A stretch of DNA of 56,276 nt from positions 62,001-118,276 of the forward strand of contig CAUYUJ010000098.1 in assembly GCA_963575745.1 (NCBI GenBank), in the 5' to 3' direction. Made by a program: the position numbers and the translations under genes. This document shows, one piece after another, positions 586-22,339 of the stretch. The notes under the pieces were generated by a model that saw nothing but the letters and a program-made list of their open reading frames with translations, was not told the DNA's origin and made no database searches. The first letter of the stretch is position 1. Each line of letters opens with the position of its first letter. Source of the stretch: Prorocentrum cordatum. Its lineage: Eukaryota.

Positions 586-605
586 GCGAGCAGTGGAGCC
601 TGTGC

Positions 606-690
606 CGAGCCCTGCTGCCGGTCCCCGAACGTCTCGAAGAAACGCCGTAGGAGCCGCGGCGCCAGGTCGCTGGCGCTGAAGGGTCCGAGC
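606..690 (-). CDS. Exon 9 (of those in window) of CDPK-like kinase gene: (L)LGPFSASDLAPRLLRRFFETFGDRQQGS
   Basis: Acceptor ctgag|G at 691-692; phase fits exon 3170-3219 (CT+G=Leu); GC3-rich codons; probable GC donor at 605 (3' end less certain because the next exon was not found). Confidence 0.75.
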
Positions 691-2273
691 CTCAGCCGCA
701 CGGGCCGCGCTCCAGCGGAAGGCCGACGAGAGCCCCTTCGAAAGGTACCCCTCGCCGTCCTCGTCCTCGTCCTTGCCCTCGTCTGCCGTCCTCGTCCTCG
801 TCCTCGGCCTCGTCCGCCGTCCCCGTCCTCGTCGTTTTTGTTTACGTGCTGCTGAATTTACGGCAACACGACAAACATTCCTCCGTTTTGCGTGGCGCTG
901 CCTGGACAGAGGCGGGGGGGCTGTTGGCCATAACCGCAGCAGGGGCAAAAAGGAATCTGCCGACCCTTCGGCGTGTGTGAGTCGCTGTCGTCGTCTTCGT
1001 CGTCGTCGTCGCCAGTTCTGAGAATAAGAAAACGAACAGAGAAAATCATCGTCGTGGTTACATCGGTTCCTTTCCCATTTTCCCCTCCCTGACAGGGGTG
1101 GGTACAGGGTGGTGAGGGGGGGTAGGGGCGGGCGTGCAAGAGGGGGTCCTGGGTCAGATTGTCCCTGGTCCCCCTGTAGACAGGGAGGAGGGGGGGGTCC
1201 CCCCTTGTGAAAAGGGATCTTGGGGGGAATGGGAGGCTGAGGGAGGTCCCGCCTATGGTGGTCCCAGGTCAGCACATCACCCCCCCCAAGGGTCTCAGCG
1301 GGTCCTGGGAGGGGTCGCCAGCGGGTGTCCCGGGGGAGCGTGCACATCGCCACACCTCCCCATAACCAGGGGTCCCCCTCTCGGCCCCTGCATGACCAGG
1401 CGGCCCCGACTAGAGCTGGCCGGCCTTCCCGAGGGACTCTTTCAGCAGGCGGAGCAGCTGTGCACCTCCCCCTTCGCAGGCGGAACGGGTCGCGCCCGCA
1501 CAGAACTTCTGCTCCGCCTCCCTCCCTCCTCCCGTCTAGTAATCCAGACCCCCGACGTCGTGAGTTTTCCACACAACGTCGACCCCCAGAGGCCTGGACC
1601 CTTTTTTCTTGTTTCGTTGCGCGCCAGGAGACTGCACCACATTGGAGAGCCAGCTTTCGGCGGCGAGCAAGGGCACCAGCCCCACGTAAAAAAGGGAAGA
1701 AGTACGGATCGACCACCTCACCAAAACAACGGCGTGGGTGCCAGGAGCGTCTCGCTCACGACTCTCGCAATGACCGGGCCCCTTCCCCAGGACTGGTATC
1801 TCATGCCCGGACCTTTCTTGCTGGTCCCGAGGCTTGGGTAAGGGCCCCCCGGAATCCGAAAGTAGCAAAACACCCCCCGTCGTGATCTCTTCACGACGCG
1901 AGGGGGCCTCCCTCCCTGTCCCCCTCCAGTTCCTCGCCCCCTCCTCCCGCTGGGCATGCACCGTGCTCCCGGGCGCTTCCCCTGGGGTGCCTTGCAAAGG
2001 GGAGCCCCCCCCTTGCCGGCCAGCCCCCGGGTCGGACTGCCCAGCTGCCCCGTGGCGCCCCCGGAGGCCCACCAACGCATGCCCCCTGCAGGCGAGGCGC
2101 TGAAGCAAGGACCACTCTGGGCTCAGACTGGGCGCGCTGTTCCTTGAGTTCCTCCATGGTTGCTCCTTTTTATCGGTCCTGGTGCACCCGGGCGCTTCTG
2201 GGGCCCCGGAAAGGGGGCCGTCGTTCCTTGTTTGGCGTTCTTTTTGGTAACGCCTCGACTGCACGGCGCGATA

Positions 2274-2453
2274 CAGTCGGAGTCGGACCTGGGCCAGAAC
2301 AGCATCCTTCAAGAACATGAGACCCCCAGTCGGCGAAAACAAGCAGAACATCCAAGGGTGCCCTCCCCAGGGTGCGCAAGAACCTTCATCAAGCACGAAG
2401 AACGTTCGGATACCTCGCCGGATCGACCTCGATTGTATACCTCGGTCCGACTG
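2274..2453. mobile_element. Tc1/mariner-type MITE
   Basis: TA-CAGTCGGA...TCCGACTG-TA. Confidence 0.5.
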
Positions 2454-3169
2454 TAACTGCAGTCGAATGGTTCCCTCTGGAGGAGCAACTGCGGCATTCC
2501 CGCCCAACCCATACCCGCCTGAAATCTGTCAATGGCCCCTTCCCGGGTTCCATCCCGATCCGCTATTCGAAGCGGGTCCAGCCGCGGGTGGCGGCAAGAC
2601 CCTCATGGGGGCCAGAACAGGGTGACCACTTGAAGGGGCACAGGAGCACACATGAATACACACAATTCCAAGGATTCTTAATAGTTTAAATGTTTCCTGG
2701 ATGGTCGTCCTCCCCCACTTTCTCAAATATTCAAAATTTTCCCTGGGGGTCGACGATCATAAGTGTCTGTGTTTTTTCTTCCTGCCGCGGACGGAGCCGT
2801 TGCCTCGGCTGGCCTTTCGCCGACCTTTCCCTTCTCATCCGCCCTCCTGCCCGCCAGGGGAGGAGGGGGAGGGGGGGGGATGAGAGGGCGGGTGGGGAAG
2901 GGGGGGGAAGGGCGAGAGGAGGGAAAGAGGAGGGGGCGAGAGGAGGGGGGGGAGGGGGAAGCGAACGGTGGGGGAGGAAGAGGGAGAGATGCGCGGAAAA
3001 AGGATGGGGGCGATAGGGTGGAGGGGGAGGGCAAGAGGATGGCGGCGCGGAAAAAAGAGAGGAGGCGGGGAAAAGGAGGGGGGGTGAGGAAGAGGGAGGG
3101 GGGAAGAGGAGGGGGGGGTAGCAATGGGGGCGGGGGAATGCGACGGCTGGGCACGGCTCAGGGCGGGAC

Positions 3170-3219
3170 AGCGGCTGACTGGTGGGGCCGGCGCCGAAGA
3201 ACTCTCGCACGACCAGGTC
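3170..3219 (-). CDS. Exon 8 of CDPK-like gene: DLVVREFFGAGPTSQP(L)
   Basis: ggcag|GAC acceptor, CT|gt donor; in phase with flanking exons. Confidence 0.75.
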
Positions 3220-3232
3220 CTGCCGGCGCCGC

Positions 3233-3645
3233 TCCTCCTACCTCCTCCTCCACCTCCTTCCCTGCCTTCCCTCCCTCCCTCCCTGCCTCCTCCTCCTGCA
3301 CCTCCTCCCTCTCTCTCCTCACTCCTCCCTCCCCCCTCCTCCCTCCTCCCTCCTCCGCCCTCCCTCCTCCCTCCTCCGCCCTCCCTCCTCCCTCCTCCCT
3401 CCTCCTCCTCCTCCTCCTCCTCCTCCTCCTCCTCCTCTCCTCCTCCTCCTCCTCCTCCTCCTCCGTCCTCCGTCTTCCCGTCTTCCTTCCTCCCTCCTCC
3501 ACCCCCCTTCCTCCTCCTCCTCCCCCCCTCCCCTCCTCCTCCTCCTCCTCCTCCTCCTCCTCCTCCTCGCCTCCTCCTCCTCCTCTCTCCTCCTCCTCCT
3601 CCTCCTCCTCCTCCTCCTCCTCCTCCTCCTCCTCCTCCTCCTCCT
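3233..3645. repeat. (CCT)n/(GGA)n microsatellite; many more at e.g. 32-138, 4135-4495, 23617-23855, 32420-32740, 44905-45210
   Basis: Direct inspection. Confidence 0.95.
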
Positions 3646-4817
3646 GCTCCTGGCAGCGGCGCGGGTTCGCGGCTCGCCGGTGCTCGGTGGTCGGTAGCCG
3701 GCAAACACCTCCGCCGCCCCCAAAAAACTGGCCAGCTCCCCTGGGGTGGCCGAGTGTCAGAGACAGCGGGGCCCCCAAGGGGGAAGGGTCTGCTGGCTGG
3801 GGCCCCTAGCTTCCGCTACGCGGGAGCACGGCGGGCAGCTGCACGAACCAGTAGGGCAGCGCCGTGAGCCCCCCAGCGGCCAGCCCGCCAGCCGACGTCG
3901 CCGCGCTGGCCGCCGCCGCCGCCCAGCTCTTCAGCGGCGCCGTGGGCCCGCCAACTCGCCGTGGGGTCCGTGGACCTTGCGTACGTCCCTTCGGCCTCCC
4001 CCTTCTCCTGTTCAAGCCTCGTGCCCCCTCCGTCTTTCTGTCGCGTTCCTCTCCCCCTCCCCCTCCCCGCTCCCCTGTCTTTCCGTTCTTCCCCCCTCTC
4101 TCTGTCCCTTTTCTTATCCTCCTACTCTTCCTGCTTCTCTTTTCTTCCTCCTCCTCCACCTCCTCCACCTCCTTCTCCTCCTCCTCCTCCTCCTCCTCCT
4201 CCTCCTCCTCCTCCCCCTCCTCTTCCTCCTCCTCCTCCTCCTCCTCCTCCGCCCCCTCCTCCTCCTCCTCCTCCTCCTCCTCCTCCTCCTCCTCCTCCTC
4301 CTCCTCCTCCTCCTCCTCCCTCCTCCTCCTCCTCCTCCTCCTCCTCCTCCTCCTCCTCCTCTCCTCCTCCTCCTCCCCTCCTCCTTCCTCCTCCTCCTCC
4401 TCCTCCTCCTTTCTCCTCCTCCTCCTCCTCCTCCTCCTCCTCCTCCTCCTGCCCCTCCTCCTCCTCCTCCTCCTCCTCCTGCTCCTCCTCCTCTTGCTCG
4501 CACTAATCCTCATCATCGATGTCCTCCAAGGCCACCTCGTGCTCTTCCACATCGTGCCGTGCTTCTGAAACCATCGTGTCGTCCGAAACGAAACCATGGC
4601 CGGCCCTTGCTCCCCCCAACCTCTCAACGCGACAGGCGGCTCGAAATCCGTCACATTGATGCAGCATGGAAAAGGGGTTGGATGAGGAGGGGGAGAAGGG
4701 GGAGGAGGAGGAGAAGGAGGAGGAGGAGGAAGAGGAGGAGGAGGAGGAGGAGGAGGAGGAGGAGGAGCAGGGGGAGGAGGAGGAGGAGAGAAGCCCCAAT
4801 CATAATCTTTTTGTTGG

Positions 4818-5018
4818 GCTGTGGAGCTATAGGGCTATAGGGCTATGGGGCTATAGAGGGGCTATAGGGCTAGAAGGCTAGAGGGCTAGAGGGCCAGAGG
4901 GCTAGGAAGCTATAGGGCTATAGGGCTATAGGGCTATAAGGCTGTGGGGTTGTTGGGCTCTTGGGCTATAGGGCTATAGGGCTGTAAGACTATATGGCTA
5001 TAGGGCTATAAGGCTATG
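4818..5018. repeat. Degenerate (GGGCTATA)n octamer repeat
   Basis: Visible 8-nt periodicity. Confidence 0.85.
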
Positions 5019-5200
5019 TGGCACCCGGGCACCCGGGCGGGCCGCCGAAATCGGCGACGCAGCTCCTGGGAGCCCGGGCTCCCGGGCGGGCCGCCAAAAT
5101 CGGCGGCGCAGCTAACCTCACCATATTAATCCGCTAGGACCCCTACAGAGGCAAGCGAGAATTATAACAAAACCAAAAGGCCCCTCACGGCCCTGCCCTC

Positions 5201-5263
5201 CGCAACGGCCAACGCGCACAAGTCGAGGGTGTCCGTCTTGGCCACGTCTATGATGTTCAAGGC
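5201..5263 (-). CDS. Exon 7 of CDPK-like gene: ALNIIDVAKTDTLDLCALAVA (degenerate EF-hand)
   Basis: ttatag|GCC acceptor, GCG|ga non-canonical donor; 63 nt, phase 0-0. Confidence 0.75.
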
Positions 5264-7683
5264 CTATAAGGGGGCAGCCCATCTACGACGAGGAACGCGC
5301 AGGGGGAGGGCGCGGACGAGACGAGGATCGAAAGTGTGCCAATGAAGTGTGACACGTGCGATGTCTGCCCGACCAACGCCCGTGAGCTGTCCCGTGCATC
5401 ATTGAGAATTTGATGCTGCGCCCCCTGACTATCCTCAACATGTGTGGGACATGTGTCGATTCAACCTGCCACGCTACGTCGGTCCATATAGTCTAACCCG
5501 TGCTGCTGCTGCAATCACCAACGTTGGATACGCGCGCCGATCATTTCTTCTACCCCCTTCTCTTGATCCTGCGGCTGCTCCTTCTTTCCGCCCCTGCCTG
5601 TCCGCAGCCGTCTGCCGTGCGCCTGCTTCTCGCTCTCCTTGTCGTCAACTTGCTCTCCTGCTCCCTTCCCTCCACTGCTCCTTCCTCCACCTGCTGACCG
5701 CCATGACAGCCTGGGAGCAATGCCTGTCACGGGGAAGATGAAGAATGGGAGGAGGGGGCGGGACGACCAGGCAACATAGGTGCGGAGTCGTCGCGACGTG
5801 CAGACGCAATCACATATAGATACGCACGCTTGTGGGGCCGCACGGATACAGTACCCCTGGGTGCAATCCCAGCGTACCCTCTACTCCTCGTCCTCCTTCT
5901 TCCCACATCCTCCCCGTTTCCTCCTCTTGTTTGTAACAAGCCTGGGCAGACTTGACCGCGGCAAGCGTCCCCAATCACATATGTGGTTGGCCCTCGTCGG
6001 AAGGGGGAATACGGACCAGACGTGTAGAACGGATCGGACTCAACGGAGGGCTGTGACCATGCAGAGCCAGCCTGGGGGGGCACAACGACTCCAGATCGGA
6101 ACGCGCTCTTGAATTATGAGGCATGGATGCGTGTGAATGATGTCGAAGCTTCTGGGACACCACTCAACTTGTTAGAGTTGCAGAAGATCTGTTGCCCGAT
6201 GGCAGTATGGTCTTCGCTGCCTTTGGACATAGCTGGGGGGGGAAGGCTGATTGCCACAAGTGCCACACATACTCCAGGAGGCCGGAAACGGGGATCACTG
6301 CGGCAGGCTGCACATGCTCGCTTCTATTTGCGATCGATCGGTTCTTATCGTTCCTCGCCCCAAGGTCTACTCAAGAGGCTACGTGTAGAACAATCAGATG
6401 TGACAGAGAGTTGCGAGTATCAGCGTCGAGCCCCCGTTGAAACCATCAGCATGAGCGATGTGTAGGCGTGAATGAATGATTAGGTACCCCCAATGGGGCG
6501 CGAATGCCCACGAATTGTGATGAGCGCGCAACGACTAACCTTAAGCTGCCTGCAATCGTCCCCAGGGGGAGCGGCAGCGTGTCATCCCACATGCAGAACA
6601 CACTTGCAACATAAACTTGCTCAAATGCCATCGATGACCTCTGCTGTATTTTTGTTTGGGAACGTTCCAGGAAGGTCCCACCGCCTTGCGTGCAGATGCG
6701 CGCACCTTCACTCACAAGAGCATGACTATCAATAACATGTCTAAGTGATTGAGCTTATTGCTGTTACTACTTCTCCCTCTCCTCCTCCTCCTCCTCCTCC
6801 TCCTCCTCCTCCTCCTCCCTGCTCCCTCCCCCTTCTCATCCTCCTGCCTCTCTTCCCTCCGCCTCCCCCTCCTGCTACTCCTCCTCACCCCGACTACCTA
6901 CAACCATTCCTAACTCCTCACGTAATCCACGTATCTCCCCGTCGGGCATGTACGAATTGACTCCTCCTCCACGTCCTCCTGCTCCCCCTCCTCTTCTGTC
7001 TTCCTGTTAACTCCTTCCTAGTCCCTCCTCCTCTCGCATGAAGGTCAGACCTCCCTCCTCGTTATCATGTACCTCACCCATCTTCTAGACTTCTAGAACA
7101 GGGGAAGACGTGACGACCCGCGCCAAAGGAGGACCAAGCGTTCCAGCCCATCCGAACCATTGGTGTGCGTGGAATTCTGCCCACCAAAGTCAACGCGTCC
7201 CAGGCATCCTGGAGGAAAGGGAGAAGGTAAAGAGGGAAAAGAAGGAGAAGGGGATGGAGAAGCAGAAGGAGAATGATAAGGAGGAGGAGGATCAGGTGAT
7301 GGAGAAATGGAAGAAGGAGAAGGGAGATGGATGGAGGGGGGAATGAAGGGGAAGGGGTGTCGGTGGCGGTGGGGAGCAGGACGAGGTCCCCCCCTTTCCA
7401 AGAGAGAACGTGGCTACAGCGTGGTCGCAGTGTGAGGTATCACTTTCGAGAGGCGCAGTGCAGCCAGCGCAGGGACAAGACATCATTCGACAAATGATCA
7501 GGCCATCAACTGGCGAATAACGTGGGGGAACGGGGGTAGGGCTGGCATGCCGGGCCTCTTGCCCAGAATCCCAGCCGCCTGAGATGCTTTACCAGATACA
7601 AGCCTTAAACCAATCATGTCTTATTGTTGCTGCGCAGAGCTGTGTAACGCCGAAAGGCGACGGAGGAAGGCAGACTGCAGGGC

Positions 7684-12387: not shown

Positions 12388-13905
12388 ACTCGATACTCAC
12401 TACTCACTAATTACCCACTACCCACTACTCACTACTCACTGCTTCCTACTCTCAACTCCCTACTCGCTACTCACTACCTCACTGCTCACAACTCACTACT
12501 CATTGCCCAATATTCACTACTCACTACGCAGTACTGACTATAACACTATCCACTACCCACTTCTCATTACTCCCTACCCACTACTCATTACTCAGTACTC
12601 ATTACGCATTGCTCTCTACTCGCTACTTCATACACAACACTCACTACTCACTACGCACAACTCACTACTCGCTACTCCCTACTCGGCACTCGCTACCCAA
12701 TACTCACTACGCACCACCCACTACTCACTATTTACTACTCCCTACTCTGTACTCCCTAATTACTAAGGCCTCCTAGATGGGGTCCGATTAGATGGGGTCG
12801 GAGGATCGCGTCGCATCGCCGATGCATCGGCGATACATAAGCGACGCATCTGCGATGCACCGGCCGGCGACGTGGGCGATGCATCGGCGACGTCGGCGTG
12901 GAGGGAATCGGGCTCCACATCGAGCCGCATCGCCGATGCATCGGCGATGCGGCACGATCCTCCGACCTCATCTACTCCGACACCATCTAGAAGGCCTAGA
13001 ATGCTACACTCTACTCACTAATCACTACTCCCTACTTATTACTCACTATTCACTATTCACTACTCACTACTCGCTACTCCCTACTCACTACTCGATACTC
13101 AATACTCCCTATTCACCACCCACTACGTACGACTCACCATTCACCACTCACTACTCACAAATCGAAAGTCCCCACTCACTAGACACTAGCCACTACGTAC
13201 TGCTCACCACTCACTACTCACCACTCACCACTCACTACTCACGAGTCACACTACCCACTACTCGCTGCCCATTTCTCCCATCTCATTACACACTAGTCGC
13301 TACTCCCTACTCACTACTCGCTGCTAATTACTCACTACCTGCAACGCCCTACTCGCTACTCCTTACTCGCTACAATATACTGGCTTCTTAGTACTCTCTA
13401 CTCGCAACCCCCTACTCGCTACCCATTTCTCACTACCCACTGCCCACTGCCCACTACACACCACTCACTACTCACTACTGACTACGCACTACTCACTGCT
13501 TGCTCACTGACCTCTACTCCCCACTCACTATTCGCCACTCACTACTCACTACTCTCTTTTCACGTTTCACCACTCACTACTCTCCACTCGCACTACTCAC
13601 TACGCACTACCCACTACTTATTATTCACTACCCTCCACCGACTACTCACTACCCACTACTCACTACTCAGTGCTCCCTACTCCCTAGTCGGTAACCGCTA
13701 CACATTCCTCACTACTCACTACTCAGGACTCACTACTCGCTACTCGCTACTCACTACTCACTACTTCCTACTGATTGCTCACTATTCACCACTACCTACT
13801 CACTTCTACACACTACTCAGTACTGGTTACCCACTACTCACTATTCACTAATCACTATTCGTTACTCTCTACTCACTACTCGCTGTTCCCTACTCCATAC
13901 TCGCT
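12388..13905. repeat. Degenerate (CTACTCA)n heptamer satellite
   Basis: About 1.3 kb of 7-nt periodic sequence, interrupted by a MITE. Confidence 0.9.
12767..12996. mobile_element. Palindromic Tourist/PIF-like MITE; other copies about 38142-38378 and partial 25643-25758
   Basis: ~43-bp TIR GGCC..TAGATGGGGTCGGAGGATCG; TAA/TAG flanks; interrupts the heptamer satellite. Confidence 0.75.
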
Positions 13906-14902
13906 GTCCGCCTTCTCCGGCACAGAAAGGAGCACCAGTAGAGGCCCCCTCCCCGGCTCTCTGTCCGGCGCCAGAAGGGGGGGGGGTCGGAAATCTAGCC
14001 CCCCCTTTGAAGAGTGGGGGGGGGGTCCGACCCCCCCCCCTTTTCAATTACAGGGTGATCAGGTGGCGTGCTTTACATATTCTTGCCTATTTTCGAGTAT
14101 CCCTCCTGCAGAAGGACATGCCCGACTTAGCTCTTACCACTTCCCCTGGCACCAGGGTGGCTAAAAAGTTAAACTACATAACCAGACGCAGACGCAATAG
14201 AAGTCCGAGCTCCAGATTCCAGCCCCCCTTGGCTCAATCAACAGGAAGGAATCGGAGAATGAGGAATTAATCAACGATGTGTGGCTGTCCGCTCCCTGTC
14301 TTCGTCTCCAGCGCCCCTGTGGAGAGAATGTCTCGAGCTTTGTGAGGGTGGACTGGGCTTCCTTATTATCCTCCTCCTCCTTCTTTTCCCTCCTGCTCTT
14401 CGGCGTCTCCACCAGCCCCCCGGCGACATTGTAATGGGGACGTGCACTTAGCAACCCTTTGTTAAGAACAAGGCGACCTGCTCGGAGCATCACTGAAAGC
14501 GTCGGAGGCTATGATGAATGAGGCGCACTGGCGACAACAACGGGCACGTTTGCCCACAATCATCTCCCTTTGAAGGAGGCCCATCAGGAGGATTGGAGAG
14601 CGGCGTGCTCGCTCGTCACGCCCCGCGCCACCAGAGATCGGCACCATTCCTGACAACCTCATCTCGGGTGTCTCTCCCCTCCCCTTGTGAACGCATGAGC
14701 AGATCTAGCCCGAGCTCCAGCCCGCCCCCAGACACAGCTTCAGAACATGCGTGGGAAAACATAGTACCCGAGCATCGGACTCTCAATGGTTCTCTCTCCG
14801 TAGGGGCACGAGGTCGAACCCGTGTTTCGACCCAGTGACTGTGCCCAGGACAACTTGAAGCCTTCGCGCTTGAAACATGTCTTCCTACCGCTATGACAAA
14901 AT

Positions 14903-15127
14903 ATTCCAATCATAAGGGCGTGGCCACCCCATGGGGTCTGCGGAAACAGCGACAGCGCACAGATTAAACCGAGAGACGAGGGGTCATCAACCTTTTTCAT
15001 CCGGCAAGCGCCGTGGGACACACGGTGGTACTCTAAAAACTCGAGCCGTGGAAGTGGAACAACTTCTGCGGCTAAGTGCAATCACCAAAAATTGCCACAC
15101 ACACACACACACACAGTACATTTGCGT
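14903..15127 (-). repeat. Split direct repeat B2 (3' end of element)
   Basis: 225-bp copy of B1, separated from A2 by 25 bp. Confidence 0.95.
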
Positions 15128-15152
15128 GGTGTGTGGGGGACGGTGGGTGGGG

Positions 15153-15285
15153 GCTTGAGCAGGAGCGGTTTCGGAGCAGAGGGGGAGAGCAGCAGCAGGA
15201 GCAGCGAACGAGACGGACGCGGCTCCACTGCTCAGAAACTCCCGAGGCCACTCGCACTTAGGAAAACGAGTCAGAGACAAATCAT
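15153..15285 (-). repeat. Split direct repeat A2 (B1/A2 junction = predicted circle junction)
   Basis: 133-bp copy of A1 abutting B1 with a shared AT. Confidence 0.95.
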
Positions 15286-15506
15286 TCCTATCATAAGGGC
15301 GTGGCCACCCCATGGGGTCTGCGGAAACAGCGACAGCGCACAGATTAAACCGAGAGACGAGGGGTCATCAACCTTTTTCATCAGGCAAGCGCCGTGGGAC
15401 ACACGGTGGTACTCTAAAAACTCGAGCCGTGGAAGTGGAACAACTTCTGCGGCTAAGTGCAATCACCAAAAATTGCCACACACACACACACACAATACAT
15501 TTGCGT
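15284..15506 (-). repeat. Split direct repeat B1
   Basis: Matches 14903-15127 with 3 substitutions and one CA-unit indel. Confidence 0.95.
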
Positions 15507-15597
15507 CCCATCCCCATCGTCAAATGCCCTTCGGGAGGGCGGGTGGGTATAAATCATTATCACTGTATAGGTCCGAGGCTGGGGCGAAGAGACAAGA

Positions 15598-16959
15598 CTA
15601 GTTGGCGCACGCGCGCCTGAGGATGTCACGAACTGTCGAGTCAGTAAAACGGGCAGCTGACGAGATTTGCAGTTCAGTGAGCTTCGACCTCTGACGAAGG
15701 GCAGACCCGTGCTTTTCATATATACGAACACTCTCTCGGGCGCGCCAGCGCCCGCGCTGCTGGATGGCCTCGATCGGTCGGATTTTGTTCAGAGCGTCGT
15801 GCGAGGGCCCTCCGTGGCGCAACTGGTGAGGAACTGACAGGAGATCACCAACTCCTGCTGAGTGGGCGGCCTGCTTCAAAGTCTTTTCAAACAGAGGAAG
15901 GGAAAGAGGGTGGAACAGAGTCGGCAGCTTCTGACGTCTGGCACGGGCTCGCAGCCTAGAGAGAATCTCGGGAACGACTCGGCGAACGGGCAGGTCAGTG
16001 CCGGCCTTCACCGTGCAGTCGAAATCTTTGTTCTTGGCTGGCTTGTCGTCGCCTAGCGGTGCTACGACGACGGTAATGTCAGAAGCCCTGCCTGACGTAC
16101 GAGAGCCGAAGACGTGCTCTGGCTTGATGGCGAGCAGCTCGCCTGGCCGGAAGTACATGTCGAACCCGGTCACGGAGGCCAGGCACGCCAGCAGGTCGGA
16201 CGTGGTCCCGTTGTCGAGCACGGCACAGGTCAGTTGGACGGCCTCGAACGGGGGCGGCTCTCGCGGCGTAGCCGGCAGTTTTGCCGCCCAACCAGTCAGA
16301 GCATCTTTGGCCTTATGGAAGCGAGGTCGGCTAGCAGACCATCCTCGAACTTTGCAGAGCCCATACAACGCGTTTCGAGCCAGGTACTGGGGCTCACCAG
16401 CAAAGAACAAGTCTTCGAAGTACAAGTTGAGCGTCTCGTCTGCCAGCTCCGGCGTGGTCAGCAGCAGGCCCCGGCGATTGGCGTAGTCGGTCAGCTCGAT
16501 CACGGCGGACGTGTAGCTGTCGACCGTGGCTGGCCGCAGCGAGGCCAGGCGGAGGTACTCTCCAGGGGCGGCCTGTCGCTGACTAGCAGCGACGTCTCCG
16601 CGCGCGGCAGCCTGCGCTCGGCGGCGCCGGGCGGCCACGGCCACTGGACGAGGGACAGGGTCACGTTGGCTCCGGCCTGCACGCCTGGGCGTCAGCACGG
16701 CTGAGTCGGCGCCTGCCTCGACGTCTGCCTCGCGGGCGTCGACGCCAGTCGTTGCCCGCGGCTGCCAGTGCGACCGCGGCTGCGCCGGCGCTGGTGCAAC
16801 CGCCACGTCAGCGGCTGCGCGGGCGCGGGTCGAGCGCGGTGGCCCACCCTGGCCTCCAGGGGAGCCGAAAGCGCTGCGGGCAGATCGGCGCCGTGACTCC
16901 GCGGGGCTCGGCGACCCCGGCCGCGCTTGCCAGCGCGTGAGCCCGAGCCTGGAGGTCAT
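15598..16959 (-). CDS. Tyrosine recombinase (C-terminal part of the 15598-21693 frame; start codon uncertain, nearest upstream in-frame ATG is 16959)
   Basis: Catalytic motifs FRPGEL, KNK, PHQLRHGG, RGRW, VRIY, with an N-terminal core-binding-like region (RPATVDSY...). Confidence 0.92.
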   Translation of the reverse strand: MTSRLGLTRWQARPGSPSPAESRRRSARSAFGSPGGQGGPPRSTRARAAADVAVAPAPAQPRSHWQPRATTGVDAREADVEAGADSAVLTPRRAGRSQRDPVPRPVAVAARRRRAQAAARGDVAASQRQAAPGEYLRLASLRPATVDSYTSAVIELTDYANRRGLLLTTPELADETLNLYFEDLFFAGEPQYLARNALYGLCKVRGWSASRPRFHKAKDALTGWAAKLPATPREPPPFEAVQLTCAVLDNGTTSDLLACLASVTGFDMYFRPGELLAIKPEHVFGSRTSGRASDITVVVAPLGDDKPAKNKDFDCTVKAGTDLPVRRVVPEILSRLRARARRQKLPTLFHPLSLPLFEKTLKQAAHSAGVGDLLSVPHQLRHGGPSHDALNKIRPIEAIQQRGRWRARESVRIYEKHGSALRQRSKLTELQISSAARFTDSTVRDILRRACAN

Positions 16960-19900
16960 CCTGGGTCGAGCGCCCGAAAGCACTCTGAGGGGCGTCTGGG
17001 CCGGCCAACGAGACCAGCAGGCGGCACCAGCTGGGTAGGTAAGCACCGGCCAGAGTCGTACGCCACGTCCAGCCTCGCGTCGGATGCCGGACCTTGCCCT
17101 GCAGCTCGACCCTGTGGCGGCAAGCGCAACAGCAGCGCAGTGCAAGATGACCCAGCCCGGGAAGGCTCCCGGCGATCGCACCTGGCTTCTTGAAGGGCGC
17201 GCCGAACCTGCACGAGTCGAACAGCACCTTCGGCCAGGCAAGGCGCTGCAGCTCGCGCTGCAACGCGGGCCACTTCCAGACTCGGCTCGCAGGCGGGTTC
17301 TCGAAAGTGACGAAGATCCCCAGGGTCCGGCAGAGTCGCAAGACACGGACTGTGAACGCCACGAGCGTGCGGCCCGCCGGCGATGGATCGCGCGTGCCCC
17401 CGACGGGCACCCACCTCGTGCAGGGCAGGCCCAGGTGGACCCACCAGACTTCTCCCGATTTGAGCCAATGTTCAACGAGATGCTGGACACGGCGGCTTGT
17501 GAGGTCACAGTGGGGCCCATACTTGGAGTCCATCGGGGGCATGATCCGAAAACCTCGCTCATGCAACGCACCACTGAGATTTGCAGTGCCCGCGAAGATC
17601 TCGAGGAAGGCTTTACGAGGGGGACCCCGTCGAGGAACTTCAGGAGGCCGAGGGCGCTTAGCCAGTGCCCGTTGAGGCTCTTCGTGTGGCCTGAGGTGTA
17701 CAGGTGGGCCCTGTTGTAGAACTGCAGGAGGCCGAGGGCGCCCAGGAGGGTCCTGTTGAGGATCTTCGCGTGCCCCAAGGTGTACATGTGGGCCCCGTAG
17801 AGGAACTCCAGGAGGCTCGAGTGCAACAGGGAGGCTTCGAACATGCTCAGGTCGATCTCGTCGGGGTCGCTCGTTGGGGCGTACTTTCGAGACTTCATCT
17901 TGATGCCTTTTACTCTGGAAAGAAGAGGAATGCGTGGCAGAGGAAGGCTGAGGTGACGGAGGTGACGGAATGCAACGGTCTCTTTCGGTGTTTTCAGGCC
18001 CCAGCAACTCGGCCTGCTCTCGTCCGATCTCAAACTCGGTAGCCGTGGTCGGCGAGGCCTTGGCCCTGCCCGCGGCTGGCGGGACCACGGGAATTCGGCG
18101 GCTGCCGCTGGTGGGCGCCGACAGGGCGCCTCGTCCGCGGTAGCGTCCGGGGAGGAGCTCACCCCGGTCAGCCGCCCGGCTCCCGTGGTCCGCGACGTTG
18201 TAGATGCCAGGCACGTGCCTCGGCCGCCAGCGGATCTCGCACCCGAAGCAGACGGCCGCAGCCCGGCGGCACTGCGCCAGGAGCTCAAAATTGGTGGCCC
18301 TGCCCTTCTCAAAGGCGAGGACCGACGACATGTTGTCGCACAGGCTGAGGATCTCCTTCCCGTGGAAGTTGACGTCGCCTGCCGCTCTCCATAGCGGTGC
18401 GACGGCGGCGCGCGCCTCGAGGGCGTGGATACGCCCTGGCCGGCGCCACGCGCCACGGCGGCGCTCCACCCAGCGGCCAGCGTCCAGCAGAGCGTCCGCC
18501 AACGGCTCGGGCGGGACCCCGATCTCCAGCTCGACCCGGCGCCTCTTGGCCACGGCGTGCCGCAGCCGGGGCGGCAGCTCGACGGGCAGTGGCCCGGAGA
18601 TGTCGCAGAAGCCGGCGGCCCGCCCCTCGTACTGCTCGTCGTCGGGTGCGACCTCGGGCTCGGTGGCGACGAACCGCTGGCGCTCCCGCCATCTGGTGGC
18701 CGCCGGCACCTCCCAGGGCTCCAGTCGGGCTTCGCAGACGGCGTAGCCTCGCAGCGAGCTGTCGGTCGTGAAGGCGACGTCGGACGGCACGCGGCACAGG
18801 TCCACTTCGCCGAGGAAGACGAGGCCTGCAGCAACTGCGAGCTCACCGAGAACATCTCCAGGCAAGCGCACGACAGGGGGCAGATCGCCGTCTCCGATGA
18901 ACGTGTAGCAGGCCCCCAGCACGCTGAGCCCGGGGCGCACGACGGAGAAGTAGTGCACCAGATGGCCGACGATTCGCCGCAGCTGCCAGCGGGCGAGCCA
19001 TGGCGTCCGAAGCACGTGGTGCAGAGCCAGGTAGAGCCTCCAGGCGCGCTTGGCGGTATGCCTGAGTCGGCCCTCGCGCCCGTCGAGCACCAGCCCCAAG
19101 ATGACAAGGCCGGGCTGCGCGCGCTCGAGCTCGTGCCAGCGAAGCCCACGGCGGTCCAGTTCAGCAGTGAGCTTGTCCAGCCGGTCGTTGAGTGCCGGCG
19201 CGCTGAGCGACACAAGATTCCCGTTGTCGACGTACGGCGCCCTGACGACAGCCTGTCCGACGAGGGTCGGCGCACGGGCTTTGTCAAGGCACCAGCCGTC
19301 GCCTGGGAGGCCCGCCTCGACCATCGCGTCGACGAGAACCTCGTGGCAGATCCAGAGCGCCCAGCTCCAGCCCATGGGCAGCGCCGCGAAGCAGGGCCAG
19401 ATGACGTCGTCGCCTGATACGGCCACGCGGCGCCCGAGCTTCTCGTCGTAGATCGAGTCGAGCCCGAGCTCGTCAGCGGTGACCTCCACGTCGAAGCACA
19501 TCCAGCTGCCCCACGAGGGGTCGGCGAACTGGTAGAACCCGTCCATGAGGTCCACGGAGCCTGCGCAGAGCGACTCGTAGCAGCCGTCGAAATCCGCCAA
19601 GTCCTCGGGGCTCGCGCCGACGGCGTCGAGCAAGTTGATCGAGCCCAGCGCCTCACCGGATGCAAGCGCAGTCCGAGGGGGAAGCTTGTGCAGCTGGTTG
19701 GGCTGGCGAGCGTCCACGACCATGCGGATGTCGCCGTTCTTCTTGGCGACGAAGAAGGTACTGACGCACGCCTTCCGACGCGCCCGGCCACCCACCAGGC
19801 CCCGTGCAGCGAGTCGTCGAAGGAAGTCGACCAGACGTGGCCGGTTCCGAGGGTCGCGCGGGTTGAGGAGAGGGTCCCAGTACGGCTCCACGATGACCTC

Positions 19901-20545
19901 GTCCTCGGGGATGTTCGGCGCGGGGCGAACGACGTCCGAGTCGAAGTGGTCCAGCGCCTCGGTGACGTGCCGAGGGGCGACGTCTCGAAGCTGACGAGGC
20001 CGGTCATGTGGCGCACGTCGTAACACATTGAGCTTGTCAGCATCATAGTCGCGGCGAGTAGAAGCCTCGCCCATGTTCGAGTACAGATCCTTGCGCTTGA
20101 GGAGCTCCTGCAGGGCTCCAGCACAGTCCATGTCTTTCGGTCGGACGCCGAACCCGCGGATACAACGTCGGACTCGCTTGATGACCGACTCCTGGGCGGT
20201 AGTCGGCCGATGCTTGCCGGGCGCTCGAGGCTCGAGACGCCCCCCAGCCCGCGCGCCTGCCAGCGCGTTGAGCGCGCCCAGAGTCTCGAGAGACCTGCGA
20301 TCACGGTCGTCAGCACGAGCAGCACGCTGGGCCAGATACCGAGGCAGAGCGGCACGTTCTCCACGATGAGGGTGGCGATAGAACTCGTCGCCCTGCGGCA
20401 GAGGAAACAAAACTGTGGACGAAGTCCGACCCTCGGAGGAGACCCCCTCGGAGAGCAGCCCGGCCCGACTCGCATTCGCGGCTGCGGAGTCAGGGCCAGG
20501 CCCAGTGAGGCCGGGCGGAGTGCCCAGCCATGATGGCGCCGACAT
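16808..20545 (-). CDS. Pol: reverse transcriptase + RNase H + C5-cytosine DNA methyltransferase-like domain (1245 aa)
   Basis: RT: FFVAKKNGDIRMVVDAR, DLMDGFYQ, LPMGWSW, YVDN, ILG. RNase H: TDSS, LEARA, CDN, NVAD. MTase (about 17000-17617): LEIFAG, GLPC, ENP, DSCRFGAPFKKP. Confidence 0.93.
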   Translation of the reverse strand: MSAPSWLGTPPGLTGPGPDSAAANASRAGLLSEGVSSEGRTSSTVLFPLPQGDEFYRHPHRGERAALPRYLAQRAARADDRDRRSLETLGALNALAGARAGGRLEPRAPGKHRPTTAQESVIKRVRRCIRGFGVRPKDMDCAGALQELLKRKDLYSNMGEASTRRDYDADKLNVLRRAPHDRPRQLRDVAPRHVTEALDHFDSDVVRPAPNIPEDEVIVEPYWDPLLNPRDPRNRPRLVDFLRRLAARGLVGGRARRKACVSTFFVAKKNGDIRMVVDARQPNQLHKLPPRTALASGEALGSINLLDAVGASPEDLADFDGCYESLCAGSVDLMDGFYQFADPSWGSWMCFDVEVTADELGLDSIYDEKLGRRVAVSGDDVIWPCFAALPMGWSWALWICHEVLVDAMVEAGLPGDGWCLDKARAPTLVGQAVVRAPYVDNGNLVSLSAPALNDRLDKLTAELDRRGLRWHELERAQPGLVILGLVLDGREGRLRHTAKRAWRLYLALHHVLRTPWLARWQLRRIVGHLVHYFSVVRPGLSVLGACYTFIGDGDLPPVVRLPGDVLGELAVAAGLVFLGEVDLCRVPSDVAFTTDSSLRGYAVCEARLEPWEVPAATRWRERQRFVATEPEVAPDDEQYEGRAAGFCDISGPLPVELPPRLRHAVAKRRRVELEIGVPPEPLADALLDAGRWVERRRGAWRRPGRIHALEARAAVAPLWRAAGDVNFHGKEILSLCDNMSSVLAFEKGRATNFELLAQCRRAAAVCFGCEIRWRPRHVPGIYNVADHGSRAADRGELLPGRYRGRGALSAPTSGSRRIPVVPPAAGRAKASPTTATEFEIGREQAELLGPENTERDRCIPSPPSPQPSSATHSSSFQSKRHQDEVSKVRPNERPRRDRPEHVRSLPVALEPPGVPLRGPHVHLGAREDPQQDPPGRPRPPAVLQQGPPVHLRPHEEPQRALAKRPRPPEVPRRGPPRKAFLEIFAGTANLSGALHERGFRIMPPMDSKYGPHCDLTSRRVQHLVEHWLKSGEVWWVHLGLPCTRWVPVGGTRDPSPAGRTLVAFTVRVLRLCRTLGIFVTFENPPASRVWKWPALQRELQRLAWPKVLFDSCRFGAPFKKPGAIAGSLPGLGHLALRCCCACRHRVELQGKVRHPTRGWTWRTTLAGAYLPSWCRLLVSLAGPDAPQSAFGRSTQDDLQARAHALASAAGVAEPRGVTAPICPQRFRLPWRPGWATALDPRPRSR

Positions 20546-20552
20546 GGCGCCG

Positions 20553-21740
20553 TCAACCCTGATCTTTCGCGGCGGCCTTGGGCTTCGGCTTCGCCTTGCC
20601 CTTCGGATCCGCCCCGGGGCCCCTCTCCCTGTCGTCGCCCTGCCTCTCGTACTTCTTCGCCTCCGACTCCTGCTCCTCCCGGTACATCCGCTCCTGCTTC
20701 AGAATGATGCCCTGCGACTTCTGCTCCTCGGCCACGAACGCGTCGAACTTGGACGTCACGACGCCTCCGCTCTCGTCCAAAGAGCTGCTCAACATCAAGC
20801 CGAGGCCCTCGAAACTCGGGTGGCGCGGGCACCTCTTCACAGCCCGCTGGATCTGCAGCACTCGGCGTCCCAGGAGCTCCAGAGACGCCAGGTTTGACGG
20901 GTCCACGAGGTCGTACGTCACGGCGTGGTGCAGCTGGTTCAGCGCGTGCCGCACCTCCTGGGCCACCGCGGCGTTCCGCGACACCCCCGACTCCGAGGCC
21001 CAGTACCCCCAGTAGGACGTGAGGGTCAGCCCGGTGGCGAGGATGGCGGCCAGCAGCTCGGGCAGGGCCTTCGGCCCCCGAAAGGGCCAGTCGTCGAAGT
21101 CGACCGCGTTCATCTTCGCGATCGCCTCCCCGAGCGTCACCTGGGCCCCGCGACCCCGCCGCGCCAGCGGGAGGATCCGCGGGTCGCGTCCCGGGCCTCG
21201 GCGCTTCTCGGCGCGCCAGTCCTCCTCGTCGGCCTGCTGCACGTTCTCGACCGAGACCCAGCCCTCCTCCTCGCTGAGCATCGCGATGCCCACCGCGTCG
21301 CGGCTGATCAGCCGCTCCGGGTTCCCGATGAGGTGGAGGTCCAGCTCGCGCCCGAACTCGGGCGAGCCTGGGTCCGAGACGATCCAGCGCGGCACGACGC
21401 CGCCAGCAGTCCCAGCTGGGGCCGAGACGCCCATGACCAGGGCGAGGCCCCGCGCCTCCACCCGCAGCGCCTCGATGTCCTCGTCCGACTGGTCGCCGAA
21501 CGCGTAGACCTGCCCACGAACCCGCACCGGGAACGCGGACCCCCGACGCAGGGGGACGACCAGGTGCTTGCTGAGGTCCAGCGTCAGCACCTCGCCGTCG
21601 GGGGTCGCCGCCACCCAGATGCCAGGGCTGAGCTGCTCGAGGAGCACCCTGTGGTGCCACCGGAAGTTGTCGTCGTCGTCGTAGTTCACGCACACCTGCG
21701 CCTCGGGCACGTCGAGCGTCCGCATCGCCGCCGCCGCCAT
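20553..21740 (-). CDS. Gag-like ORF1 of YR retrotransposon (395 aa)
   Basis: Position upstream of pol; clean GC3-biased ORF; helical C-terminal half with charged/basic tail; assignment is positional. Confidence 0.75.
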   Translation of the reverse strand: MAAAAMRTLDVPEAQVCVNYDDDDNFRWHHRVLLEQLSPGIWVAATPDGEVLTLDLSKHLVVPLRRGSAFPVRVRGQVYAFGDQSDEDIEALRVEARGLALVMGVSAPAGTAGGVVPRWIVSDPGSPEFGRELDLHLIGNPERLISRDAVGIAMLSEEEGWVSVENVQQADEEDWRAEKRRGPGRDPRILPLARRGRGAQVTLGEAIAKMNAVDFDDWPFRGPKALPELLAAILATGLTLTSYWGYWASESGVSRNAAVAQEVRHALNQLHHAVTYDLVDPSNLASLELLGRRVLQIQRAVKRCPRHPSFEGLGLMLSSSLDESGGVVTSKFDAFVAEEQKSQGIILKQERMYREEQESEAKKYERQGDDRERGPGADPKGKAKPKPKAAAKDQG

Positions 21741-21763
21741 CTGGCGAACCGCCGACGATCAGG

Positions 21764-22177
21764 CTACGCTCGCACCGCCCGAAAGCGGCGCTGCGCGCCG
21801 CCGTCCTGGCCCGCTCCGTCGTCCTCGACGAGCAGGGTCACGGGCGCCGCGCCCTCGCGCCGCGGCGGGTCGGTTCCGCCGACGAAGAGCGAGGCGACTC
21901 GGGCGGCCCAGCCCAGCGTCACGCGGAGGCTGCCACCAGCCGCGAGCCCAGCGCCCAGGGCGGCAAGGACCGCCCACCAGCCTGGCCCGGACCCGCAGGT
22001 CAGACTGCAGTCCGGGCAGCTCGGGCAGCCCGGGCAGGGGGCGGCGGCCGCCGCCGGAGGGCACGCGGGGCAGGCCCCGCACGTCACGCGGGCCTCTGGG
22101 CAGGCGGGACAGCGCGAGAGCCACGCGGTCGCGATGGAGGCCGCCCACGGGCCGGCTGCGGCCCACGGCACCACCAT
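21764..22177 (-). CDS. ORF0 of YR retrotransposon: 137-aa Cys-rich (CPxCP) protein with hydrophobic segments, function unknown
   Basis: ATG 30 nt inside A1; GC3-rich codons; MVVPWAAAGPWAASIATAWL - CPACP/CGACPACP/CPGCPSCPDC - WWAVLAALGAGLAAGG; ends 24 nt before the Gag ATG. Confidence 0.65.
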   Translation of the reverse strand: MVVPWAAAGPWAASIATAWLSRCPACPEARVTCGACPACPPAAAAAPCPGCPSCPDCSLTCGSGPGWWAVLAALGAGLAAGGSLRVTLGWAARVASLFVGGTDPPRREGAAPVTLLVEDDGAGQDGGAQRRFRAVRA

Positions 22178-22206
22178 GCACTGCCGGGGGCCCCTCGATT
22201 GATAGA

Positions 22207-22339
22207 GCTTGAGCAGGAGCGGTTTCGGAGCAGAGGGAGAGAGCAGCAGCAGGAGCAGCGAACGAGACGGACGCGGCTCCACTGCTCAGAAACTCCCGAG
22301 GCCACTCGCACTTAGGAAAACGAGTCAGAGACAAATCAT
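22207..22339 (-). repeat. Split direct repeat A1 (5' end of element)
   Basis: 133 bp, one substitution versus 15153-15285. Confidence 0.95.

What the first reader, a model, noticed from the sequence alone, without database searches (positions are those of the whole stretch)
15598..21693. 2031-codon stop-free frame overlapping all of pol and ending in the recombinase
Seen: the YR frame is +1 relative to pol over all 1245 pol codons. It contains more than 40 TGG codons (pol NTG-G) but no TGA (pol NTG-A), TAA or TAG. Inference: this is hard to explain by GC content alone and suggests selection to keep the frame open, e.g. a giant YR fusion or ribosome transit from an upstream ATG or frameshift. 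Known: YR/RT overlaps occur in DIRS elements, but here the overlap also crosses RNase H, the linker and the MTase. Openness over gag (-1 frame) is less informative.
Basis: partly seen in the sequence, partly recalled or inferred. Interest (0 to 1): 0.72.

Follow-up and report, generated by a model that had tools for sequence, protein, structure and literature searches.

The report
Recombinase reading frame spanning whole retrotransposon
A tyrosine-recombinase retrotransposon of the dinoflagellate Prorocentrum cordatum keeps its recombinase reading frame free of stop codons across its whole polymerase and capsid genes; selection maintains this, but it is an extreme form of an overlap already known in DIRS-type elements.

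Summary
On the minus strand, one frame is stop-free for 2079 codons (21837-15601) and ends in the tyrosine recombinase (YR). It lies +1 to pol and -1 to gag.

- **Not chance.** Synonymous shuffles of pol expect 16 stops; 0 of 5000 shuffles had fewer than 4.
- **Controls.** In 18 related elements without the feature, stops total 356 observed against 369 expected.
- **Replication.** Two distant relatives (about 36% pol identity) show the same frame. One has a 1951-codon frame closed at both ends, with an ATG 32 nt after the gag ATG.
- **What is conserved.** Only the openness. The +1-frame protein sequence is no more conserved than shuffles predict.
- **Direct sign of reading.** A lineage-specific RNase H-methyltransferase linker fits the element's codon usage in the YR frame, not the pol frame.

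The element is a DIRS-order retrotransposon with split direct repeats (A-coding-B-A-B), closest to the published SymbioDIRS-Dnmt3. A long YR/pol overlap is a published DIRS1-like hallmark, and this scan already noted it three times in Naegleria.

My best reading is a translational bridge: ribosomes starting at an upstream AUG in this frame reach the recombinase. Translation was not shown here.

The parts
14895..22339 (-). Whole retrotransposon, layout A - coding - B - A - B
   Evidence: Bounded by the direct repeats found. It is a single copy in the window.
22207..22339 (-). 5' terminal repeat A
   Evidence: 99.2% identical to 15153-15285 in direct orientation.
15153..15285 (-). Internal 3' copy of repeat A
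15276..15506 (-). Repeat B, first copy
   Evidence: 97% identical to 14895-15127 in direct orientation.
14895..15127 (-). Repeat B, second copy (3' end of the element)
21767..22177 (-). ORF0, a 137-codon upstream ORF in the pol frame, Cys/Pro-rich with a hydrophobic stretch
   Evidence: ATG and stop positions. Public gene models P0002, P0003, P0008 and P0014 match it at 44-94% identity.
20556..21740 (-). gag-like ORF (395 codons; stop at 20553-20555)
   Evidence: GC3 is about 0.9-0.95 in this frame. tblastn matches to gag of L003, L004, L006, L007 and L009. No Pfam family.
16811..20545 (-). pol ORF (1245 codons; stop at 16808-16810): RT/RNase H, linker, DNMT-like methyltransferase
   Evidence: 22 homologues found. 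The A1 profile gives a weak match to a retroviral POL chain. Codon periodicity fits this frame except in the linker.
17491..18030 (-). RNase H-methyltransferase linker whose codon usage fits the YR frame, not the pol frame; it contains an 84-nt tandem repeat at 17618-17821
   Evidence: It is short or absent in diverged families. It has no homologues outside the family.
16811..17572 (-). Methyltransferase domain with a cytosine-C5 DNMT3-like fold
   Evidence: Model pLDDT 72. The top Foldseek matches are DNMT3A/3B/2, 19 at E <= 0.001. PC and ENP residues are invariant in alignment A5.
15601..21837 (-). Stop-free YR frame (2079 codons; stop at 15598-15600). In-frame ATGs lie at 20475, 20046, 20043, 20028, 20007, 18855, 17898, 17844, 17787, 17562, 17520, 16959 and 16158.
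15601..16602 (-). Tyrosine recombinase domains (core-binding plus catalytic)
   Evidence: Invariant R152, K190, R262, H263, W286 and Y295 in 10 sequences. Model pLDDT 77. Foldseek finds XerH, Cre and XerA, 39 matches at E <= 0.001.

Best explanation
The frame is the 5'-extended tyrosine-recombinase ORF of an apparently intact DIRS-order retrotransposon of Prorocentrum cordatum. The element's layout is ORF0, gag, RT/RNase H-linker-DNMT-like methyltransferase, YR, bounded by split direct repeats.

Shown: purifying selection removes stop codons from this frame by synonymous choices in pol (NTC-A instead of NTG-A). It does not constrain the overlapped amino-acid sequence.

Inferred: the frame works as a translational bridge. 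On an unspliced polycistronic RNA, a ribosome that starts at an upstream AUG in this frame reads through the overlapped S/R/A/G/P/T-rich stretch and ends by making the recombinase. In this copy the first such AUG is at 20475, 70 nt after the pol AUG. In relative L009 it is the AUG 32 nt after the gag AUG. This avoids any need for an internal start 4-6 kb downstream.

The segment from about 18000 downwards is the part with direct compositional evidence of being read in this frame.
For: 1. Selection on openness.
- 0 stops against 16.0 expected; 0 of 5000 shuffles fell below 4.
- Context-specific: NTN-A pairs carry C at position 3 in 34 of 34 (WIN), 32 of 34 (L009) and 19 of 19 (L004). Controls are mixed, for example L001 with 21 C, 16 G, 7 T and 1 A.
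- TGA is depleted and TCA enriched in all three open-frame elements.

2. The null is calibrated. In 18 related elements without the feature, +1 stops total 356 observed against 368.6 expected (my sum).

3. Replication in distant relatives.
- L004: pol +1 has 0 stops vs 10.0 expected; gag +2 has 0 vs 4.7.
- L009: pol +1 has 0 vs 13.5, with a minimum of 6 in 2000 shuffles. Gag +2 has 1 vs 9.1, and that single stop is the one that opens the frame.
- L009's frame (569-6421) is closed at both ends and ends in YR.

4. AUG placement.
- The next ATG after the pol ATG is in the YR frame in L009 (1792 then 1805) and L004 (1463 then 1509). In WIN (20545 then 20475) one 13-codon ORF lies between.
- The next ATG after the gag ATG is in the bridging frame in L009 (555 then 587), L006 (919 then 1032) and L035 (145 then 213).

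5. Linker codon usage. Log-odds are +0.33 in the YR frame against -0.35 in the pol frame. Bona fide coding regions of the element score 0.15-0.47 in their own frame. In the linker, GC3 is 0.81-0.94 in the YR frame, and 0.39 at YR-frame position 2, which is the pol third position.

6. The same logic appears in other architectures.
- The pol frame has 0 stops across a nested YR ORF in 6 of 6 elements, against 7.8-12.4 expected.
- The pol frame is open over all of gag in L006, L007 and L035: 1 vs 13.2, 0 vs 14.5 and 0 vs 13.3.

7. Literature. A long pol/YR overlap, with the catalytic domain in the non-overlapping 3' end, is described for DIRS1-like elements and was reported in half of 28 annotated elements (PMC3266345, passages read).
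Against: - No expression or translation data.
- In this copy there is no ATG in the YR frame between 21837 and 20475. The openness over gag therefore has no evident start here. Taken alone it is weak: 0 vs 4.4, with a null that overestimates by about 25%.
- In L004 the second ATG after the gag ATG is in the pol frame, not the bridging frame.
- The trait is patchy. Only 3 of 21 elements tested have it. L001, sister to the WIN clade, and L008, sister to L009, lack it (the tree is a quick one, its careful search unfinished).
- A roughly 1200-residue unconstrained N-terminal extension on a recombinase is an odd product. No processing site or protease was found.
- The Kozak rules of dinoflagellates are unknown to me, so the AUG contexts carry little weight.
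Confidence: 0.6

Rival explanations
1. Ribosomes enter the YR frame by frameshifting rather than by their own start. The shift would be +1 from pol or -1 from gag, either at one programmed site or spread along the ORF. The products would be Gag- or Pol-(spacer)-YR fusions.
For: - The frame relations fit: YR is +1 to pol and -1 to gag.
- This copy has no YR-frame ATG over gag.
- An open frame makes any upstream slip productive.
Against: - No conserved X_XXY_YYZ heptamer occurs in gag of WIN, L004, L009 or L006 at a shared position.
- None occurs in the YR frame at the gag-pol junction, apart from one poor CCCGGGC in L004.
- Distributed slipping would select most weakly against 5' stops. Yet the frame is completely open up to a sharp boundary beside the gag start in L009 and WIN.
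- +1 frameshift signals were not searched for systematically.
Confidence: 0.15
2. Ribosome transit itself is the function, with no role for the protein made. Keeping the full-length RNA covered by ribosomes nearly to its 3' end would protect it from decay or surveillance, as proposed for the stop-free reverse frames of ambigrammatic narnaviruses.
For: - Only openness is conserved, not sequence.
- The frame spans nearly the whole internal region.
- The narnavirus analogy is taken from a search-listing abstract only (PMC6884476).
Against: - The frame always ends in the YR domain, which needs translating anyway.
- In the nested-YR elements the bridging frame ends in the methyltransferase. This points to delivering a coding module rather than covering RNA.
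Confidence: 0.1
3. A genuine second protein with its own constrained sequence is overprinted on pol across the whole overlap.
For: - The linker segment fits YR-frame codon usage.
- TTA is depleted in the +1 frame of L009 (2 vs 10.6) and absent in WIN.
Against: - +1-frame amino-acid identity between the three open-frame elements is not above shuffles: 147/727 vs 148.4, 137/516 vs 123.1 and 131/544 vs 124.2, giving z of -0.2, 1.9 and 0.9. This lies within or just above the range of the 12 control pairs, z -1.7 to 1.7.
- The overlapped translation is low-complexity: S 17%, R 13%, A 11%, G 9%, P 9%, T 9%.
- Codon-usage log-odds in the YR frame are negative over RT/RNase H (-0.24) and the methyltransferase (-0.25).
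- The linker has no homologues outside the family.
Confidence: 0.07
4. The open frame is a by-product of high GC content or of genome-wide codon context.
For: - GC is 0.66-0.70 across the element.
- Long ORFs occur in many frames.
Against: - Shuffles that keep the protein and its codon usage never give fewer than 4 stops.
- The +2 frame has 28 stops and the antisense frames 9-39.
- gag and the YR domain of the same element show the expected +1 stops.
- L009 shows the feature at a GC of only 0.61.
- 18 control elements match expectation.
Confidence: 0.01

Closest known systems
DIRS1-like retrotransposons with 'long ORF overlap' (Dictyostelium DIRS-1 and relatives; Piednoel et al. 2011, PMC3266345, passages read)
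   Same: - The YR ORF starts far upstream and overlaps pol in another frame.
- The catalytic YR domain sits in the non-overlapping 3' end.
- The trait is present in some lineages and absent in others.
   Different: - The termini here are split direct repeats, not inverted repeats with internal complementary regions.
- The methyltransferase has a DNMT3-like fold, not the Dam-like type those papers describe (as quoted).
- The open frame also covers all of gag, and in L009 it starts beside the gag AUG.
SymbioDIRS-Dnmt3 of Symbiodinium (de Mendoza et al. 2018, PMC5890265, passages read)
   Same: - Dinoflagellate host.
- A-coding-B-A-B repeats.
- A DNMT domain sharing the pol ORF with a divergent RT that escapes Pfam.
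- A separate YR ORF.
- Two coexisting domain orders. Both orders were seen here: WIN, L009 and L029 against L031-L037.
   Different: - The host is Prorocentrum, which the paper does not mention (0 occurrences).
- The passages I read say nothing about a stop-free YR frame over pol and gag, nor about the pol frame bridging a nested YR. I did not read that paper's supplements.
Ambigrammatic narnaviruses (PMC6884476; search-listing abstract only)
   Same: A genome-length second ORF in which the absence of stops is what is selected, and for which no function of the product is described.
   Different: In narnaviruses the ORF is on the reverse strand of an RNA virus and ends in no known domain. Here it is on the same strand, +1 to pol, and ends in a recombinase.
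Earlier notes of this scan on Naegleria DIRS elements (e1-684469, e1-673409, e1-636573)
   Same: A stop-free second frame over pol, kept open by selection and ending in YR. One of the notes reports that the openness, not the sequence, is conserved.
   Different: Different host and element lineage. In one Naegleria case the frame is contiguous with gag after a single TGA. Here it overlaps gag in the -1 frame.

Membership tests
DIRS order (tyrosine-recombinase retrotransposons) | Encodes a tyrosine recombinase in place of an integrase | tested here: met
   - R152, K190, R262, H263, W286 and Y295 are invariant in 10 sequences.
- The AlphaFold model has pLDDT 77.
- Foldseek gives XerH, Cre, XerA and XerD, 39 matches at E <= 0.001.
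- Pfam alone is weak: PF00589 at E 0.051.
DIRS order (tyrosine-recombinase retrotransposons) | Reverse transcriptase / RNase H pol | tested here: inconclusive
   - No Pfam hit.
- The A1 profile matches a retroviral POL chain only at E 0.004.
- RT-like motifs (YVDN, DGFYQF, LPMGWSW) were read by eye.
- The paper quoted says dinoflagellate DIRS RTs escape Pfam.
- No fold test of the RT was run.
DIRS1-like superfamily (sensu Piednoel 2011) | Inverted terminal repeats plus internal complementary regions | tested here: not met
   Only direct repeats bound the element, in the layout A...B-A-B.
DIRS1-like superfamily (sensu Piednoel 2011) | Long overlap of the YR ORF with pol, catalytic domain non-overlapping | tested here: met
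   The YR domain at 16602-15601 lies downstream of the pol stop at 16808.
PAT-like / split-direct-repeat YR elements | Split direct repeats at the termini | tested here: met
   Repeat A (133 bp, 99%) and repeat B (233 bp, 97%) are both direct. No phylogeny against reference PAT elements was made, because no reference sequences were at hand.
SymbioDIRS-Dnmt3 | Cytosine-C5 DNMT (Dnmt3-type) domain in the pol ORF | tested here: met
   - It lies in the same ORF as RT/RNase H.
- Model pLDDT 72 and pTM 0.72.
- The best Foldseek matches are all DNMT3A/3B/3C/DNMT2, with probability 0.97-1.0 but TM only about 0.35.
- PC and ENP are invariant.
- No sequence-level hit in Pfam or the PDB.
- No phylogeny within the Dnmt3 clade was made.
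SymbioDIRS-Dnmt3 | A-coding-B-A-B repeat layout | tested here: met
   compared with the figure legend quoted.
Overlapping (dual-coding) gene | Both frames are translated | not testable with these tools
No ribosome-profiling or proteomic data were reachable.

The most novel reading that the evidence does not exclude
One lineage of dinoflagellate DIRS-Dnmt3 elements translates a single ORF of about 2000 codons that overlaps both gag and pol, starting beside the gag AUG. To my recollection (not searched) this would be among the longest same-strand overlaps in any eukaryotic element.

The overlapped part would serve only as a ribosome bridge. The same 'frame-bridging' rule would then explain how YR retrotransposons in general express 3' modules: the pol frame over gag, the YR frame over pol, and the pol frame over a nested YR.
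Probability: 0.35. Interest if true: 0.6.

Novelty: new variant of a known kind. Interest (0 to 1): 0.42.

Why it matters
How DIRS-type elements express a recombinase gene that lies several kilobases from the 5' end of one RNA has, to my knowledge, never been worked out.

This case offers three things:
- A clean, calibrated demonstration that selection acts on the openness of the frame and not on its sequence.
- Three independent copies of the design.
- Two sister designs that follow the same logic: the pol frame kept open over gag, and the pol frame kept open over a nested recombinase gene.

Together these turn a descriptive "long ORF overlap" into a specific hypothesis that existing P. cordatum proteomic or ribosome-profiling data could test.

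The case also extends DNMT3-bearing DIRS elements beyond Symbiodiniaceae. It shows as well that public gene models of this genome stitch the three frames together as exons.

Tried and rejected
- Pfam on gag, pol, the YR frame, ORF0 and the linker gave nothing significant.
- Single-sequence PDB searches of YR and pol gave nothing meaningful. The methyltransferase profile against the PDB gave only chance-level hits.
- No whole genome is held for the window.
No read-level variation, expression or trans-splice evidence was obtained, and read laying was not used.
- The scan of viral contigs found no relative.
- ORF0 fused to the open frame as a general rule: rejected. ORF0 lies in a different frame relative to gag in WIN, L004 and L009.
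- An apparent gag-frame periodicity at 16880-16520 is most simply explained by the amino-acid make-up of an A/R/G/P-rich stretch. The gag frame has stops there.
- No conserved -1 slippery heptamers were found.
- No relic spliced-leader motif (recalled motif, up to 3 mismatches) occurs in the window.
- The linker domain has no homologues outside the family among 1.84 billion representatives. The one other hit, P0023, is an unrelated repeat protein.
- Conservation of the +1-frame protein was not found. One odd value remains unexplained: the +2 frame of the WIN-L004 pair has z 3.6.
- timed out and was re-run. The careful tree search did not finish, so only the quick tree is used.
Full report
**What is there.** The element lies on the minus strand.

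Stop-to-stop frames:

| Frame | Coordinates | Codons |
|---|---|---|
| YR | 21837-15598 | 2079 |
| pol | 20698-16808 | 1296 (ATG at 20545 gives 1245) |
| gag | 21758-20553 | 401 (ATG at 21740) |

- By coordinates the YR frame is +1 to pol and -1 to gag, so all three frames are used in turn.
- A fourth conserved ORF, ORF0 (22177-21767, pol frame), precedes gag.
- Direct repeats bound the element: A at 22207-22339 matches 15153-15285 (99%), and B at 15276-15506 matches 14895-15127 (97%). The layout is therefore A-coding-B-A-B.
- Of 22 pol homologues, 17 are named Prorocentrum cordatum by their sources.

**Is it more than chance?** Over the pol stretch the +1 frame has 0 stops and 48 TGG. The +2 frame has 28 stops and the antisense frames 9, 21 and 39.

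- Shuffling synonymous codons within pol 5000 times gives 16.0 ± 2.9 +1 stops, with a minimum of 4.
- The cause is specific. A pol codon with T at position 2 followed by an A-starting codon ends in C in 35 of 35 cases. G|A boundaries are frequent for other second bases (16, 27 and 27 cases). No Met is followed by an A-starting codon.
- In the +1 frame TGA is depleted to zero and TCA correspondingly enriched.
- The null is calibrated. gag and the YR domain of this same element show the expected +1 stops, 13 vs 11.8 and 11 vs 8.6.
- Across 18 related elements without the feature, +1 stops total 356 observed against 368.6 expected (my sum).
- The +2 null overestimates by about a quarter. The openness over gag in this copy (0 vs 4.4) is therefore weak evidence on its own.

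**Relatives.** I had no DNA of close copies.

Scans with a pol alignment gave eight metagenome loci and one contig, L009, in a MAG labelled actinobacterium. That MAG holds at least 13 more contigs with retroelement matches.

Two distant relatives, at about 36% pol identity, repeat the design:
- L004 has gag, pol (+1) and a third frame open over the whole 3164-bp contig. Pol +1 shows 0 stops vs 10.0 expected, and gag +2 shows 0 vs 4.7.
- L009 (GC 0.61) has a 1951-codon frame, 569-6421, closed at both ends. It overlaps gag and pol and ends in the YR domain. Pol +1 shows 0 vs 13.5, with a minimum of 6 in 2000 shuffles. Gag +2 shows 1 vs 9.1, and that one stop is the stop that opens the frame.

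Altogether 3 of 21 elements tested have the stop-free +1 frame over pol.

A quick tree (its careful search unfinished) puts the WIN clade next to L001, which lacks the feature. It puts L004 and L009 in another clade, with L008, which also lacks it. The trait is therefore patchy.

**What is conserved.** Using codon-anchored pol alignments, I compared +1-frame amino-acid identity between the three open-frame elements against synonymous shuffles.

| Pair | Observed | Expected | z |
|---|---|---|---|
| WIN-L009 | 147/727 | 148.4 | -0.2 |
| WIN-L004 | 137/516 | 123.1 | 1.9 |
| L009-L004 | 131/544 | 124.2 | 0.9 |

- Twelve control pairs range from z -1.7 to 1.7.
- Only the openness is conserved, not the sequence.
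- The overlapped translation is low-complexity: S 17%, R 13%, A 11%, G 9%, P 9%, T 9%, W 4%.

**A segment that does look read in this frame.** This is the linker between RNase H and the methyltransferase, about 18030-17491.
- GC3 is 0.81-0.94 in the YR frame; GC is 0.39 at YR-frame position 2, which is the pol third position.
- Codon-usage log-odds, trained on the rest of the element, are +0.33 in the YR frame against -0.35 in the pol frame. The element's undisputed coding regions score 0.15-0.47 in their own frames.
- The segment holds an 84-nt (28-residue) tandem repeat.
- It is short or missing in diverged P. cordatum families.
- It has no homologues outside the family.
- The YR frame therefore seems to be read at least from about 18000, roughly 1 kb upstream of the conventional YR ATG at 16959 and across the methyltransferase.

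**Start codons.**
- After the pol ATG, the next ATG is in the YR frame in L009 (1792 then 1805) and L004 (1463 then 1509). In WIN (20545 then 20475) one 13-codon ORF lies between.
- After the gag ATG, the next ATG is in the bridging frame in L009 (555 then 587), L006 (919 then 1032) and L035 (145 then 213).
- This is not so in L004.
- WIN has no YR-frame ATG over gag at all.
- No conserved slippery heptamers were found.

**Sister designs.**
- In six MAG contigs the YR ORF is nested in the +1 frame between RNase H and the methyltransferase. The pol frame crosses it without a stop in 6 of 6, against 7.8-12.4 expected.
- In L006, L007 and L035, pol is -1 to gag and its frame is open over all of gag: 1 vs 13.2, 0 vs 14.5 and 0 vs 13.3.
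- The common rule is that a downstream module is joined to the 5' region by an unbroken frame laid over another gene.

**Identity of the domains.**
- YR: invariant R, K, R-H, W and Y residues, a model with pLDDT 77, and Foldseek matches to XerH, Cre and XerA.
- Methyltransferase: a model with pLDDT 72 whose best matches are all DNMT3A/3B/DNMT2, though with TM of only about 0.35. PC and ENP are invariant.
- RT: only weak profile evidence. A published remark says dinoflagellate DIRS RTs escape Pfam.

**Comparison with what is known.**
- Piednoel et al. 2011 (PMC3266345; passages read) state that DIRS1-like YR and pol ORFs may overlap considerably, with the catalytic domain in the non-overlapping 3' end. 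They found long overlaps in half of 28 annotated elements.
- de Mendoza et al. 2018 (PMC5890265; passages read) describe SymbioDIRS-Dnmt3. It has A-coding-B-A-B repeats, a DNMT in the pol ORF, a separate YR ORF and two domain orders. The present element and the MAG contigs match that description. The paper does not mention Prorocentrum.
- Three earlier notes of this scan report the same kind of frame in Naegleria DIRS elements and judged it a known hallmark. My tests on this DNA agree.
- My paper searches turned up no description of three things: coverage of gag as well, a start beside the gag AUG in L009, and the occurrence in a direct-repeat, DNMT3-bearing dinoflagellate element. I did not read supplements, nor older subscription papers on DIRS-1.

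**Verdict.**
- Selection for openness is shown.
- Translation as a bridge to the recombinase is the best-supported mechanism but is inferred (0.6).
- This is a new variant of a known kind, of moderate interest.

Noticed in passing
window 21767-22177 (-): ORF0 is a 137-codon Cys/Pro-rich ORF with a hydrophobic stretch, lying upstream of gag. It is matched by public gene models of diverged copies at 44-94% identity. Look-alike upstream ORFs occur in L009 and L004, but each lies in a different frame relative to gag.
   Followed up: partly
window 17491-18030 (-): The linker between RNase H and the methyltransferase fits the element's codon usage in the YR frame, not the pol frame. It holds a 28-residue tandem repeat and has no homologues outside the family. 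It may be an N-terminal domain specific to this family's recombinase protein.
   Followed up: partly
window 16811-17572 (-): By predicted fold, the methyltransferase of this Prorocentrum element is DNMT3-like (cytosine-C5), not Dam-like. DNMT-bearing DIRS elements therefore seem to occur outside Symbiodiniaceae.
   Followed up: partly
L031, L032, L033, L034, L036, L037: In these six contigs the YR ORF is nested in the +1 frame inside the pol ORF, between RNase H and the methyltransferase. The pol frame crosses it with 0 stops in 6 of 6, against 7.8-12.4 expected.
   Followed up: yes
L006 969-2142; L007 3-1020; L035 (reverse strand) 3-1431: In these elements pol is -1 to gag and its frame stays open over all of gag. 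In L006 and L035 the first ATG after the gag ATG is in that frame.
   Followed up: yes
L009 and L029-L038 (record G001): A MAG labelled as an uncultured actinobacterium holds at least 14 contigs with retroelement (RT) matches, most of them recognisable as eukaryote-type YR retrotransposons. These are probably GC-rich protist DNA binned in error.
   Followed up: no
P0001-P0014 against window 15954-22138: Public P. cordatum gene models stitch gag-, pol- and YR-frame pieces of such elements together as if they were exons. One model (P0012) carries a host-enzyme name in UniRef.
   Followed up: partly
window 20556-21740 (-): All 7 ATGs inside gag are in the gag frame and none is out of frame. With GC3 near 0.94 few out-of-frame ATGs are expected, so I did not test significance.
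   Followed up: no
window 12394-13881 and many other sites: Long heptamer arrays of about 50-120 units (TACTCAC / CTACTCA) flank the 3' side of the element. Tri- and hexanucleotide arrays are frequent across the window.
   Followed up: no
WIN-L004 pol alignment: Amino-acid identity in the +2 frame of this pair exceeds shuffles (142/516 vs 116.1, z 3.6). No other pair or frame does so. This is unexplained.
   Followed up: no
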